Assembly (NCBI GenBank): GCA_035507275.1
Contig: DATJOG010000005.1
Span: 37,854-101,853, forward strand
Direction: 5' to 3'
Length of the DNA: 64,000 nt
From: Candidatus Acidiferrales bacterium
GTDB lineage: Bacteria; Vulcanimicrobiota; Vulcanimicrobiia; Vulcanimicrobiales; Vulcanimicrobiaceae
In this document: piece by piece, positions 16,538 through 18,812 of the stretch
Position numbering within the stretch: position 1 is the first letter of the stretch
Layout of the letters: the number at the start of each line of letters is the position of its first letter
The notes under the pieces: model-generated
The model's input: only the letters and a program-made list of their open reading frames with translations
Told to the model about the DNA's origin: nothing
Database searches by the model: none
Position numbers and translations under genes: made by a program

Positions 16538-16586
16538 GGTTTAAATGAGCCCGGCTGGCCTGGGTCTCACTGCAGGGGGGGCAAAC

Positions 16587-16661
16587 GGCCTCCCGAACAC
16601 ATTAAGAAGGATTGTCTCGGGGGGCCATGCCCTCTCACCCCGAGTGGGTGGAGGTATGGCC
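16587..16661 (+). promoter_or_regulatory. structured 5' leader (two long, partly mutually exclusive hairpins) upstream of the OMP gene
   Basis: Hairpin 1 pairs GGCCUCCCGA (16587-96) with UCGGGGGGCC (16617-26). Hairpin 2 pairs GGCCAUGCCCUCUCACCC (16623-40) with UGGGUGGAGGUAUGGCC (16645-61) around a CGAG loop. The two hairpins share GGCC at 16623-26. No U-tract follows. Confidence 0.3.
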
Positions 16662-16725
16662 TTGAGCGCCGCGATGCGGCCCTGAAACAACTCGGAATTA
16701 TTACTCGATCTCCTAGGAGGAAAAC

Positions 16726-18066
16726 TTGAAGCGACTGAGCACCGGAGTCCTCGCCGTGCTGTTAGCAGCCGGTCTCGGACTTAACGCGGTCGCAGCCCAG
16801 AACACCTCCGCGTCGCATGGAAACATTGGAACCAACGCGATCGCGCAGGATTCAGGCTCGACCATGGCTCCGCCGGCGAACTTCGGTTCCCCACCGTCGG
16901 GGCAGATCCCGATCCTCTATAACGACCACCACGTTTATGCGAAGCCCGACGTCCTCAAGCAGGGTCGTGTGCTCGCTGCGCTCGTGCGCGGCGGCACCGT
17001 GCTCATCCCGCTTCGTTCGATGTTCGAGCAAATGGGCGCGACCGTTTCATACGATGCGTCCAGCAAGACGGTGGACGTCAGCAAACCCGGCGCCGACGTG
17101 AAGGTCACGGTCGGAAAGCCGGAAGTCGTGATCAACGGCGAATCGCGTCCGCTGGACGTGCCGCCGATCCTGTATCACGGCCACGTACTCGTGCCCGTCC
17201 GCGTGATTTCGGAAGGCATGGGCGCGTACGTTCAGTGGGTGCCCGATAAGCAGCTGGTCGTCGTGCGGTACATCCCGCCGACACCGCCGCCGACGCCCAC
17301 GCCGCCCCCGCCGCCGACCGCTCCGCCGGCAACTGCACCGCCCACGCCGACCCCGGCACCGGTTGCAACGCCGTACCGCGACCTCTTCATCGCGGGTGAC
17401 TATCTCGTCTCGCAAAAGGTCTACGACGAGTTCTCTCCGGGCAACACTGCAAGCGGCAACAACGGCAACGGGATCTCGTACCAGATCCATGGTGCGGGTG
17501 AATTCGACGTCTTCGGCATGCCGTGGATGATCGACGGGGCGTTGGAACAGATCAACTACCCGCATGATTGCGGCATCGATCCCACGACCGGTGCATACAG
17601 CGCCAACTGCTATGTGACGACGATCGGCGGAATGGGTTCAAACCCAATCGGCGCGACGGGCATCAGCAGCTACGAAGCCGAAGCGCACGTCGGTCTCAAG
17701 GTCGCCGATCCGCACATCTACATCGGCGTCGGCTACCTGTGGCGTTCGAACAACGTCGGTTATCCGCGCCTCTCGAACGTCGGCTTCGGCGCCGAGAAGC
17801 TTCCGGATCTCAACCATCCGTTCTCGGTTTACGGGAGCGTTTGGTACTACGGCAACGTGAAGGGCAACTTCACCGATCCGTCCGGCAACGTCTATCAACT
17901 GGCCTATAACATCCTCAAGGGCCAGCTTGGTGTGACCTACTCGTTCCAAGGCAGCCCGCTCTTCCTTGAAGCGGCCGTCATTGGCGAGGAGCTCAAGAAC
18001 AAGACCAACGCGCCGAGCGATGGGGGCAACTTCGGCCCCTACGTCGGTATCGGGTTGAAGTTCTAG
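16726..18066 (+). CDS. outer-membrane protein: copper-amine-oxidase-N-like domain + Pro/Thr linker + C-terminal beta-barrel
   Basis: 446 aa with a TTG start 7 nt after AGGAGG and a signal peptide. The CuAO-N1-type repeat is GRVLAALVRGGTVLIPLRSMFEQMGATVSYD / HGHVLVPVRVISEGMGAYVQWV. A PTPPPTPTPPPPP linker follows. The C-terminal half has alternating-residue strands and ends ...YVGIGLKF (terminal Phe). Confidence 0.7.
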   Translation: MKRLSTGVLAVLLAAGLGLNAVAAQNTSASHGNIGTNAIAQDSGSTMAPPANFGSPPSGQIPILYNDHHVYAKPDVLKQGRVLAALVRGGTVLIPLRSMFEQMGATVSYDASSKTVDVSKPGADVKVTVGKPEVVINGESRPLDVPPILYHGHVLVPVRVISEGMGAYVQWVPDKQLVVVRYIPPTPPPTPTPPPPPTAPPATAPPTPTPAPVATPYRDLFIAGDYLVSQKVYDEFSPGNTASGNNGNGISYQIHGAGEFDVFGMPWMIDGALEQINYPHDCGIDPTTGAYSANCYVTTIGGMGSNPIGATGISSYEAEAHVGLKVADPHIYIGVGYLWRSNNVGYPRLSNVGFGAEKLPDLNHPFSVYGSVWYYGNVKGNFTDPSGNVYQLAYNILKGQLGVTYSFQGSPLFLEAAVIGEELKNKTNAPSDGGNFGPYVGIGLKF

Positions 18067-18090
18067 ACTCGCCTCACGGCGGGTTGACGA

Positions 18091-18127
18091 AAGAGCCTCT
18101 GATGACTCAGAGGCTCTTTTCTTTTTT
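18091..18127. terminator. bidirectional rho-independent terminator
   Basis: A perfect 12-bp stem AAGAGCCTCTGA/TCAGAGGCTCTT with loop TGAC is followed by TTTTCTTTTTT on the plus strand. It sits between convergent genes, and the minus-strand stop lies at 18126-28. Confidence 0.85.
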
Positions 18128-18812
18128 ACGAACCGGCGGTTGGAACCGGTGAGGGCTCCACGCACTGCGGCGTAATCACGTCGATCGCCGGGCTGCCGGG
18201 TTTCGGCGACGGAGTCTGCGTTGCATTGGGCGTCGTCTCCGGCATGACGCCGCTCGGCAAAGGTGTCGGACAGAGCTGCGGATTTGCAAAGTAGTGCTCG
18301 GTGAAGCCGCGCGCAAGGTCGGCTCTTTCTAATTTTCCGAAGTACGTGTTGGGAAATCGCGACGTCAGGATGTGCATGTAGGTCCATGCTTTCTGCTGCC
18401 AAGGCAGCAGATAGATCTTCTTGTACATACGGATCGCGAGAAAATAGGAACGCGCGAGCTGGGGATCGCCGGGGTATTTATGCGACCAATCGCGCAGCGC
18501 TTCGTCGGCAAAGCCGACCTTCGAAACGATGCCGGGGTCGGTCGTGTAGTCGCCGGCGCGGATCGTCTCGTCGTGAAACGTGTTGTTGATGCCGAGATAG
18601 CTCAGCTTCATGCGCCCGAAGTACTCGTCGCCCGGGGCCGAATGCGTGAAGTCTTCGCATTGCACGCGGGCCCATTTGCTCGGCTTCTTCGCGCAAGAAT
18701 CTTTCGGTGCGGCGGTTGCCGCGGGTTTGGGAGCCGCGAGCGCGGCGGATCCAAGCACGGCGGCAAGCGCGATGACGGAGGCAACAGCAAAGAGCGGACT
18801 GCGTTTCACCAA
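18126..18812 (-). CDS. secreted hypothetical protein
   Basis: 228 aa with a signal peptide (FAVASVIALAAVLGSAALA), normal composition and a Pro-rich C-terminus. I recognise no motif. Confidence 0.55.
   Translation of the reverse strand: MVKRSPLFAVASVIALAAVLGSAALAAPKPAATAAPKDSCAKKPSKWARVQCEDFTHSAPGDEYFGRMKLSYLGINNTFHDETIRAGDYTTDPGIVSKVGFADEALRDWSHKYPGDPQLARSYFLAIRMYKKIYLLPWQQKAWTYMHILTSRFPNTYFGKLERADLARGFTEHYFANPQLCPTPLPSGVMPETTPNATQTPSPKPGSPAIDVITPQCVEPSPVPTAGS

What the first reader, a model, noticed from the sequence alone, without database searches (positions are those of the whole stretch)
16726..18066. Outer-membrane beta-barrel fused to a copper-amine-oxidase-N-type ('stalk') domain: an unusual OMP architecture, apparently highly expressed
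Seen in sequence: the protein has a signal peptide and then a tandem CuAO-N1-like domain (…TVLIPLRSMFEQMGATVSYDASSKTVDV… / …HVLVPVRVISEGMGAYVQWVPDKQLVVV…). A PTPPPTPTPPPPPTAPPATAPPTPTP linker follows. The last ~215 aa are rich in Gly/Tyr/Asn, have alternating hydrophobicity and end with the OMP signature …GIGLKF. The gene is monocistronic, with a consensus AGGAGG, a 190-nt structured leader and a perfect bidirectional terminator.

Established knowledge: in Terrabacteria-type diderms, OmpM-class proteins join a periplasmic cell-wall-binding SLH domain to a porin barrel and tether the outer membrane. CuAO-N1 domains are common wall- or surface-associated modules in Firmicutes.

Inference: this may be an analogous tether/porin in which CuAO-N1 replaces SLH.
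Basis: partly seen in the sequence, partly recalled or inferred. Interest (0 to 1): 0.6.

Follow-up and report, generated by a model that had tools for sequence, protein, structure and literature searches.

The report
Eremiobacteria outer-membrane barrel with wall-type anchor

Summary
The gene at 16726-18066 (+) is real. It encodes a signal peptide, one PF07833 (Cu_amine_oxidN1) domain (E=7.7e-26), a Pro/Thr-rich spacer of about 37 aa, and a C-terminal domain ending in ...GIGLKF. AlphaFold2 folds that domain confidently (pLDDT 89.7, pTM 0.84) into about 10 long antiparallel strands. Its structural neighbours are all outer-membrane barrels, the best being the 10-stranded OpcA and OmpT/Pla.

The barrel has no Pfam family and no PDB relative by sequence. 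It occurs in 132 of 132 sampled genomes of the class Eremiobacteria (1-6 copies, 3 here) and in 0 of 69 genomes of sister classes. Those sister classes nearly all (67/69) carry SLH proteins.

This genome and the four sampled genomes of its genus have no SLH domain. Their only OmpA-family hit is MotB-like here and of the same ORF size in three of the four relatives. At least 11 genomes in the class have neither domain.

The N-terminal domain is far more conserved than the barrel (86% against 60% pairwise identity). The spacer length stays at 35-44 aa. Indels fall in the predicted external loops.

The tether reading is therefore plausible (about 0.5) but rests on inference, because wall binding by PF07833 has never been shown. 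The 'porin' reading is not supported, and 'highly expressed' is unverified. The family is undescribed in the literature I could search.

The parts
16538..16725 (+). 5' leader / intergenic region. It contains a ~60-nt core (about 16568-16625) that is almost invariant in orthologues.
   Evidence: The fold has z=-1.98 and there is no Rfam hit. The leader shares 80-92% nt identity with orthologous leaders. The core is invariant in the 23-sequence alignment A5. RNAalifold support is weak: -9 kcal/mol with 3 covarying pairs.
16715..16720 (+). Shine-Dalgarno AGGAGG, 5 nt before the TTG start codon (16726-16728).
   Evidence: Read from the sequence. CTAGGAGGAAA(A)C(A/T)TTG with a TTG start is kept in 23 of 23 orthologous loci.
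16726..16797 (+). Sec signal peptide (aa 1-24, ...NAVAA|Q); no lipobox cysteine.
   Evidence: Read from the sequence. The K/R n-region, hydrophobic core and AxA-type site are conserved in alignment A1. No predictor was run.
16798..16902 (+). N-terminal tail of the mature protein (aa 25-59). It is low-complexity and ends in the invariant FGSPPSG motif.
   Evidence: Alignment A1; AF2 pLDDT below 50.
16903..17271 (+). Cu_amine_oxidN1 (PF07833) domain, aa ~60-182 (Pfam match aa 84-179). It is one domain made of two beta-beta-alpha-beta-beta repeats, and I infer that it is periplasmic.
   Evidence: Pfam E=7.7e-26. There is a weak match to the D1 domain of E. coli amine oxidase. AF2 secondary structure. 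Mean pairwise identity is 86% in 75 homologues, against 60% for the barrel.
17272..17382 (+). Pro/Thr/Ala-rich spacer (aa 183-219).
   Evidence: Read from the sequence. AF2 pLDDT is below 50. The distance from the VVVRY motif to the GDY motif is 35-44 aa (median 39) in 78 loci, although the spacer sequence varies.
17383..18066 (+). C-terminal outer-membrane beta-barrel of ~10 strands (aa 220-446) plus the stop codon. It ends in the ...GIGLKF beta-signal, has a conserved periplasmic turn EKLPDL and a conserved Cys pair in loop 2.
   Evidence: AF2 pLDDT 89.7, pTM 0.84. Foldseek hits: OpcA TM 0.55-0.57, OmptT/Pla TM 0.44-0.49 (OmpT/Pla family), FapF, OmpG. No Pfam family and no PDB relative by sequence. 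Indels are confined to loops L1, L2 and L4.
18089..18130 (+). Intrinsic terminator: a 14-bp stem with a 4-nt loop, then CTTTTTT. It lies between the gene and the convergent gene at 18126..18812 (-).

Best explanation
The gene encodes a BAM-assembled outer-membrane protein of a family confined to the class Eremiobacteria.

- The C-terminal ~225 aa form a small (~10-stranded) barrel that sits in the outer membrane.
- The barrel's N-terminus faces the periplasm. From there a proline-rich spacer of nearly fixed length reaches towards the cell wall. At about 0.31 nm per residue as a PPII rod (my own estimate), ~35-40 residues span roughly 10 nm.
- The spacer presents a highly conserved Cu_amine_oxidN1 domain, which binds peptidoglycan or a wall-attached polymer non-covalently.
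- The protein would thus tie the outer membrane to the wall and help set the width of the periplasm. The logic is that of OmpA (barrel, Pro hinge, wall-binding domain) in the domain order of OmpM (wall-binding head first, barrel last).
- Three paralogues share the head (79-87% identity) but differ in the barrel (50-58%).

Shown here: the architecture, the fold class, the taxonomic distribution, the absence of the known tethers, and the conservation pattern.

Inferred: the periplasmic location of the head, and wall binding.
For: 1. PF07833 domain. Confident barrel model whose structural neighbours are all outer-membrane barrels. C-terminal Phe beta-signal. BamA is present in the genome. A cultured member of the phylum has an inner membrane, thin peptidoglycan and an LPS-bearing outer membrane in thin sections (PMC9758169).

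2. Known tethers are missing.
- There is no SLH domain in this genome or in the four other sampled genomes of the genus, one of them a single contig.
- The only OmpA-family domain here is a MotB-like protein with an N-terminal TM helix. Three of the four sampled relatives of the genus have a single hit of the same ORF size.
- At least 11 high-quality genomes of the class have neither SLH nor any OmpA-family domain, yet carry 2-4 copies of this family.

3. Distribution.
- The barrel family is in 132/132 sampled genomes of the class and 0/69 of the sister classes.
- SLH proteins are in 67/69 sister-class genomes but only 56/132 genomes of the class.
- Fused full-length copies also occur in the second order of the class.

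4. The head is under much stronger constraint than the barrel: 86% against 60% mean pairwise identity, and head > barrel in 99.9% of pairs. This fits a partner that does not vary.

5. The spacer length is held at 35-44 aa while its sequence drifts.

6. Indel-rich segments are exactly the alternate connections L1, L2 and L4, counted from the periplasmic C-terminus. This places the barrel's N-terminus in the periplasm.

7. [quoted passage not shown]
Against: - No experiment shows that any PF07833 domain binds peptidoglycan or a wall polymer.
- In one solved case the domain mediates dimerisation instead (PMC10432803).
- The head was modelled only at pLDDT 50-70, so no binding site can be named.
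- Many family members are stand-alone barrels without the head, so the barrel has some role of its own.
- One relative (P0130) carries ~1100 aa of adhesin-type repeats in front of the barrel. This suggests the N-terminal cargo could be outside the cell in some members.
- 56 of 132 genomes keep an OmpM-like SLH protein as well, so the family is not a simple replacement.
- No expression data could be obtained, and codon bias is unremarkable.
- The strand count (10) is read from DSSP and from structural neighbours.
Confidence: 0.5

Rival explanations
1. The barrel does the main job as a small specific channel, a surface receptor or adhesin, or an omptin-like enzyme. The periplasmic Cu_amine_oxidN1 head is an accessory that binds another envelope protein or drives oligomerisation, not the wall. 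The protein would then be an ordinary outer-membrane protein with a docking module, and tethering would be incidental at most.
For: - Stand-alone barrels of the same family are common, so the barrel is useful without the head.
- The periplasmic turn EKLPDL and other barrel motifs are conserved in head-less members too.
- The closest folds are an adhesin (OpcA) and proteases (OmpT/Pla).
- His280 and a DxD motif near the predicted external rim are nearly invariant in close homologues.
- A PF07833-type domain forms a homodimer in PaSOD (PMC10432803).
Against: - His280 and the DxD motif are not kept at 90% or more in the wider family.
- There is no sequence match to the omptin or OpcA families.
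- This reading does not explain the fixed-length proline spacer.
- It does not explain why the family is universal exactly where SLH and OmpA tethers are dispensable.
Confidence: 0.25
2. Type-V-like surface display. The C-terminal barrel anchors, and perhaps exports, the N-terminal part. The Cu_amine_oxidN1 domain would then sit on the cell surface on a proline stalk, acting as an adhesin or matrix-binding module.
For: - The order of parts (signal peptide, N-terminal cargo, linker, C-terminal barrel) is that of classical autotransporters.
- FapF and an autotransporter barrel (EstA) appear among the structural hits.
- One relative, P0130, carries DUF11 and DUF5979 repeats in front of the same barrel. 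From my own knowledge, these are typical of surface adhesins.
Against: - About 10 strands, not 12. No autotransporter Pfam match. No helix in the linker.
- The head is the most conserved part of the protein. Exposed parts usually vary most, and here it is the predicted external loops that carry the indels.
- Loop/turn parity puts the barrel's N-terminus in the periplasm.
Confidence: 0.12
3. It is an OmpM-like dual tether and general porin: the barrel is the cell's main diffusion channel and the head anchors it.
For: - The domain order is the same as in OmpM.
- There are several paralogues per genome, as with the OmpM1-4 proteins of Veillonella (PMC10628300).
- General porins (OmpF/OmpC/OmpK36) appear low in the Foldseek list.
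Against: - The barrel is ~225 aa with ~10 strands. The porin hits have TM 0.13-0.30 and rmsd 15-20 A, against TM 0.5-0.57 for 10-stranded barrels.
- There is no coiled coil for trimerisation and no SLH domain.
- From my own knowledge, known 10-stranded barrels do not form general pores.
Confidence: 0.08

Closest known systems
OmpM / Mep45 / SlpA-type tethers of diderm Terrabacteria (e.g. Veillonella parvula OmpM1; PMC10628300)
   Same: - Same order of parts: signal peptide, N-terminal periplasmic wall-directed module, spacer, C-terminal outer-membrane barrel.
- Several paralogues per genome.
- Found in a Terrabacteria-type diderm that lacks Lpp, Pal and OmpA.
   Different: - No SLH domain.
- The spacer is a proline-rich rod, not a trimeric coiled coil.
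- The barrel has ~10 strands, not a 16-stranded porin.
- No sequence relationship.
- A true SLH/coiled-coil/barrel protein coexists with it in 56 of 132 genomes of the class.
OmpA / OprF (small barrel, Pro-rich hinge, periplasmic OmpA_C peptidoglycan-binding domain)
   Same: - A small, probably monomeric barrel used mainly as a membrane anchor.
- A proline-rich hinge.
- A globular periplasmic domain that would hold the wall non-covalently.
- This is the closest match in how the protein would work.
   Different: - The domain order is reversed: head first, barrel last.
- The head is PF07833, not PF00691.
- The barrel has ~10 strands, not 8, and is unrelated in sequence beyond a weak generic OMP_b-brl signal in 2 of 31 members.
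- The spacer is about twice as long.
OpcA (Neisseria) and omptins OmpT/Pla: 10-stranded outer-membrane barrels
   Same: They are the best structural neighbours of the barrel: OpcA TM 0.55-0.57; OmpT/Pla E down to 8e-7 with TM 0.44-0.49. They share the same strand number and long strands.
   Different: - 9-14% identity, and no Pfam or PDB match by sequence.
- Those proteins have no periplasmic domain.
- The omptin catalytic Asp/His pairs were not established here.
Cu_amine_oxidN1 (PF07833) modules of Firmicutes wall-associated proteins, and domain D1 of E. coli amine oxidase
   Same: The head is a clear member of PF07833 (E=7.7e-26). Like those modules, it is an extracytoplasmic accessory domain.
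   Different: - Here it is fused to an outer-membrane barrel in a diderm, a combination I found in no paper.
- The function of the module is unknown in every context. The link to the wall is by association only (PMC4137172).

Membership tests
Pfam PF07833 Cu_amine_oxidN1 | Match to the family HMM above the gathering score | tested here: met
   90.6 bits against a cut-off of 24.2, E=7.7e-26, aa 84-179, profile positions 12-107 of 108. Both paralogues also match.
Outer-membrane beta-barrel protein (BAM substrate) | Sec signal peptide, closed antiparallel barrel, C-terminal aromatic beta-signal, and BamA in the genome | tested here: met
   - The signal peptide and terminal ...GIGLKF are read from the sequence. 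K445 and F446 are nearly invariant.
- AF2 pLDDT 89.7, with all neighbours being outer-membrane barrels.
- Omp85/BamA is at C22.
- Barrel closure itself could not be inspected because coordinates are not exposed.
OmpM / SLH-porin tether | N-terminal SLH domain | tested here: not met
   No PF00395 match in the protein or anywhere in the genome.
OmpM / SLH-porin tether | Trimeric coiled-coil stalk between head and barrel | tested here: not met
   The linker is Pro/Thr-rich and AF2 predicts no helix in it.
OmpM / SLH-porin tether | 16-stranded general-porin barrel | tested here: not met
   About 10 strands in ~225 aa. Porin hits have TM 0.13-0.30.
OmpM / SLH-porin tether | Binds polyaminated peptidoglycan or a pyruvylated wall polymer | not testable with these tools
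   This needs a sacculus pull-down. A PF04230 pyruvyl transferase is present in 18 of 18 genomes of the genus, but it is not diagnostic because it also matches in 9 of 14 control genomes.
OmpA family | C-terminal OmpA_C (PF00691) peptidoglycan-binding domain after an N-terminal 8-stranded barrel | tested here: not met
   No PF00691 match in the protein. The domain order is reversed. The only PF00691 hit in the genome is MotB-like.
Classical autotransporter (type Va) | 12-stranded C-terminal translocator (PF03797) with an alpha-helical linker in the pore | tested here: not met
   No autotransporter family among the Pfam matches. About 10 strands and no helix before the barrel.
Omptin (OmpT/Pla) proteases | Match to the omptin family and the Asp-Asp / Asp-His catalytic pairs at the external rim | tested here: inconclusive
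   - The fold is similar (E=8e-7, TM 0.44-0.49), but there is no sequence match.
- His280 and D317/D319 are conserved only among close homologues.
- Their positions in space were not checked.

The most novel reading that the evidence does not exclude
The class Eremiobacteria evolved its own outer-membrane-to-wall tether from new parts: a new 10-stranded barrel family plus a Cu_amine_oxidN1 head on a proline ruler. This tether made the ancestral SLH/OmpM system dispensable, so that more than half of the sampled genomes have lost it. If so, this would be a further type of outer-membrane tether beside Lpp, Pal, OmpA, OmpM and covalently linked barrels. It would also give the widespread PF07833 domain its first assigned function, wall binding.
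Probability: 0.4. Interest if true: 0.78.

Novelty: new variant of a known kind. Interest (0 to 1): 0.62.

Why it matters
How the outer membrane is held to the cell wall is central to current ideas on how single-membrane bacteria arose from double-membrane ones. The published survey I could read states that OmpM homologues occur in all diderm Terrabacteria phyla, and it does not mention Eremiobacterota (10.1101/2021.05.31.446380).

Here is a diderm Terrabacteria lineage in which many genomes have neither SLH/OmpM nor OmpA/Pal domains, yet every genome has this new barrel-plus-head protein. If it is the tether, three things follow:
- Tethering systems can be replaced without loss of the outer membrane.
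- PF07833, a domain found in many wall-associated proteins of Firmicutes, would get a testable function.
- There would be a handle on the envelope of an abundant, almost uncultured soil phylum. One cultured member, Vulcanimicrobium alpinus, exists for experiments.

If it is not the tether, these bacteria hold their outer membrane by a means still unknown.

Tried and rejected
- Codon adaptation as a proxy for expression: the gene is at the 68th percentile, and the paralogues are at the 25th and 51st. This does not support 'highly expressed', but codon bias is weak in this genome.
- Leader as a riboswitch or known RNA: no Rfam match, fold z only -1.98, and the consensus structure of 23 leaders is weak. 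I reject it as a demonstrated structured RNA. I keep it as a sequence-conserved element.
- Sigma-70 promoter scan: no hit.
- First attempt to scan genome contigs with the diverse barrel alignment A2 failed because no stretch was conserved enough. The narrower alignment A3 worked.
- Pyruvyl transferase PF04230 as a marker of the SLH/CsaB system: present in 18 of 18 genomes of the genus, but the family also matches in 9 of 14 controls, so it says nothing.
- Literature searches for a link between PF07833 and an outer-membrane barrel or peptidoglycan binding: only an association with wall hydrolases and one dimerising example. One search was too loose and was wasted.
- The published Nature Microbiology version of the tether survey is not held.
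- Omptin-like catalysis: considered because of the fold hits and a conserved His and DxD.
- The N-terminal domain could not be searched by fold.
Full report
**What is there**

The ORF 16726..18066 (+) encodes 446 aa from a TTG start. An AGGAGG lies 5 nt upstream. After a Sec-type signal peptide (MKRLSTGVLAVLLAAGLGLNAVAA|Q, no lipobox, read from the sequence) come four parts:
- A low-complexity tail.
- One Pfam PF07833 Cu_amine_oxidN1 domain (aa 84-179, E=7.7e-26, 90.6 bits against a cut-off of 24.2).
- A Pro/Thr/Ala-rich spacer (aa ~183-219).
- A strand-rich C-terminal part ending in ...GIGLKF.

NCBIfam and the PDB sequence search see only the weak relationship to domain D1 of E. coli amine oxidase.

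**The C-terminal domain**

With 32 homologues the full-length AlphaFold2 model is confident only in the C-terminal part (pLDDT 80-96). The head scores 50-70 and the linker below 50.

The C-terminal part alone, with 53 homologues translated from fetched loci, gives pLDDT 89.7 and pTM 0.84. It has ten long strands (protein numbering):
- 220-242, 252-262, 265-280, 311-327, 331-342
- 349-358, 366-383, 389-406, 412-427, 433-445

Foldseek against the PDB returns only outer-membrane barrels among the leading hits:
- OpcA: TM 0.55-0.57
- Legionella Dot/Icm 'porin I': TM ~0.5
- OmpT/Pla: E down to 8e-7, TM 0.44-0.49
- then FapF and OmpG
- the 16-stranded general porins align poorly (TM 0.13-0.30, rmsd 15-20 A)

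By sequence the barrel belongs to no Pfam family (2 of 31 members touch the generic OMP_b-brl model at E=0.005). A profile of it finds no PDB chain. So it is a small barrel of a new sequence family, not an OmpM-type porin. I could not inspect coordinates, so the strand count and barrel closure rest on DSSP and on the structural neighbours.

**Orientation**

I counted back from the C-terminal Phe, which is periplasmic in all known BAM substrates (established knowledge). The connections then alternate as follows:
- L5, T4, L4, T3, L3, T2, L2, T1, L1

In an alignment of 75 homologues, insertions and deletions fall in L1 (37% gaps), L2 (about 2 inserted residues per sequence) and L4 (1.4 per sequence). 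T1-T3 have none, and T4 only a trace (0.19 per sequence). That is the usual pattern of long variable external loops and short periplasmic turns. It puts the start of strand 1, and hence the spacer and head, in the periplasm.

The most conserved barrel motif, G-F-G-x-E-K-L-P-D-L, ends in periplasmic turn T3.

**Conservation pattern**

In those 75 proteins the head averages 86% pairwise identity and the barrel 60%. The head is the more conserved part in 99.9% of pairs.

Within this genome there are three paralogues, on C5 (this gene), C46 and C38. Their heads are 79-87% identical and their barrels 50-58%.

The spacer varies in sequence, but the distance from the VVVRY motif to the GDY motif is 35-44 aa (median 39) in 78 loci. 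A head that hardly changes, on a spacer of fixed length, attached to a diverging barrel, is what one expects of a module that reaches an invariant periplasmic partner at a set distance.

**Where the family occurs**

The close full-length homologues (62-82% identity) come from MAGs labelled Eremiobacteraeota, Baltobacteraceae, Vulcanimicrobiaceae, Aquilonibacter or Tumulicola.

An exhaustive HMMER search with the barrel alone finds only 232 cluster representatives among 1.84 billion. Their architectures are:
- about a quarter of the listed ones carry the PF07833 head
- many are stand-alone barrels with a signal peptide and a Pro/Ala tail
- a few have other N-terminal parts, including one with ~1100 aa of DUF11/DUF5979 repeats and one double barrel
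- none has SLH

In one genome per species of GTDB, 448 loci encode a relative. The best 80 are nearly all titled Eremiobacterota or Vulcanimicrobiota. The exceptions are eight records titled Alphaproteobacteria, Acidoferrum or Acidiferrales and five titled only 'bacterium'.

In an even sample of 201 genomes of the phylum, the barrel is in all 132 genomes of the window's class (1-6 copies). It is in none of the 69 genomes of the other classes, apart from one weak hit. The counts are cross-checked. Full-length fused copies, often three in tandem, also occur in the second order of the class.

**Known tethers**

This genome is 2.83 Mb and 96% complete. It has BamA and a TolC-type/MFP pair next to the gene. 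A cultured member of the phylum shows an inner membrane, thin peptidoglycan and an LPS-bearing outer membrane (PMC9758169; see also 10.1101/534180).

It has no SLH domain. Its single OmpA-family domain belongs to a MotB-like protein with the N-terminal membrane helix. So OmpM, Pal and OmpA are absent. Lpp was not searched.

The same holds for the four other sampled genomes of the genus as regards SLH, including a one-contig genome. Three of them carry a single OmpA-family hit of the same ORF size (~258 aa), and the fourth was not in that sample.

Across the phylum:
- SLH proteins are in 67 of 69 genomes of the sister classes.
- SLH proteins are in only 56 of 132 genomes of the class.
- Where kept, the protein is a classical SLH/coiled-coil/large-barrel protein.
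- OmpA-family domains are in 73 of 131 genomes of the class.
- At least 11 good genomes have neither: G024, G049, G057, G069, G073, G085, G097, G113, G125, G132, G133.

The new family is thus the only barrel-plus-periplasmic-domain protein I found that is universal in the class. It appears exactly where the ancestral system becomes dispensable.

**Best explanation**

The protein is an outer-membrane anchor (barrel) that holds a wall-directed head at the end of a proline ruler. It works like OmpA but is arranged like OmpM.

I put this at about 0.5. The decisive step, binding of PF07833 to peptidoglycan or a wall polymer, has never been shown. The literature offers only an association with wall hydrolases in Firmicutes (PMC4137172) and one case where a related domain dimerises (PMC10432803).

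Rivals:
- An outer-membrane protein whose barrel does the real work, with the head docking another protein (0.25).
- Type-V-like surface display of the head (0.12). The order of parts and the adhesin-bearing relative keep this alive. The strand number, the missing helix, the loop parity and the extreme conservation of the head argue against it.
The small barrel argues against it.

**Transcription signals**

The terminator is real: a 14-bp stem at 18089-18120 plus a T-run.

The 188-nt leader is only modestly more stable than shuffles (z=-1.98). It matches no Rfam family. It is, however, 80-92% identical in the nearest orthologues. It also holds a ~60-nt core, and the CTAGGAGGAAAC(A)TTG start region, that are invariant in 23 loci of several genera. 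RNAalifold finds little common structure. The element is conserved, but whether it acts as RNA or as DNA is open.

No sigma-70-like promoter was found.

Codon adaptation is at the 68th percentile.

**Comparison and novelty**

By the membership tests, the protein is a member of PF07833 and a generic BAM-type barrel. It is not a member of the OmpM, OmpA or autotransporter families. Its relation to omptins is structural only.

I found no paper describing this architecture. The tether survey available to me does not mention Eremiobacterota.

Earlier notes of this scan on other genomes describe the same family, and one follow-up reached the same 10-strand, Eremiobacterota-only reading. I re-derived those points independently. 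I add the class-level presence/absence pattern against SLH and OmpA domains, the conservation contrast, the spacer-length constraint and the loop-parity argument.

I rate it a new variant of a known kind (barrel-plus-wall-module tethers), built from new parts.

Noticed in passing
window 16538-16728 (core about 16568-16625): The leader of the gene holds a ~60-nt core (CACTGCAGGGGGGGCAAACGGCCTCCCGAACACATTAAGAAGGATTGTCTCGG) that is almost invariant in 23 orthologous loci from several genera. The weak TTG start codon behind a perfect SD is kept in all 23. The common secondary structure is weak, so the element may be an operator or promoter, or a sequence-specific RNA site.
   Followed up: partly
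proteins P0130 (1378 aa) and P0266 (501 aa): The same barrel family also occurs behind ~1100 aa of DUF11/DUF5979 adhesin-type repeats (P0130) and as two barrels in one chain (P0266). Several relatives (P0128, P0213, P0231, P0264) carry an unknown Cys-containing N-terminal domain instead of PF07833.
   Followed up: partly
G041:C7:144687-149173 and G134:C1:1018576-1023006 (loci L088, L089, L095): In the second order of the class, three full-length fused paralogues lie in tandem. In the window's genome the three copies are dispersed on contigs C5, C46 and C38.
   Followed up: no
L082 (G041:C3, SLH match at 88723-88854): Some genomes of the class keep a classical SLH/coiled-coil/large-barrel (OmpM/SlpA-like) protein in an ORF of ~935 aa. 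It is absent from the window's genus.
   Followed up: partly
window 18126-18812 (-): The convergent neighbour encodes a 228-aa secreted protein (signal peptide, Pro-rich C-terminus) with no Pfam match. It shares the terminator hairpin region with the barrel gene.
   Followed up: no
G000:C41:40925-41752: A polysaccharide pyruvyl transferase (PF04230) is present in all 18 genomes of the genus, although none of the sampled ones has an SLH domain that would read a pyruvylated polymer. The family is broad, so this may be unrelated.
   Followed up: no
loci L003/L031 (DATKPZ01...), L005/L059, L010, L044/L052: Public MAG records titled Alphaproteobacteria, Candidatus Acidoferrum or Acidiferrales carry this Eremiobacteria-specific gene at about 68-72% identity (barrel part). 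Some even carry two paralogues. The record labels are probably wrong, or the bins are mixed.
   Followed up: no
window 17566-17610 (aa 281-295): External loop 2 carries a conserved Cys pair (C282/C295; C295 is invariant in 32 homologues), probably a disulfide. Longer versions of the loop in other genera add further Cys residues.
   Followed up: no
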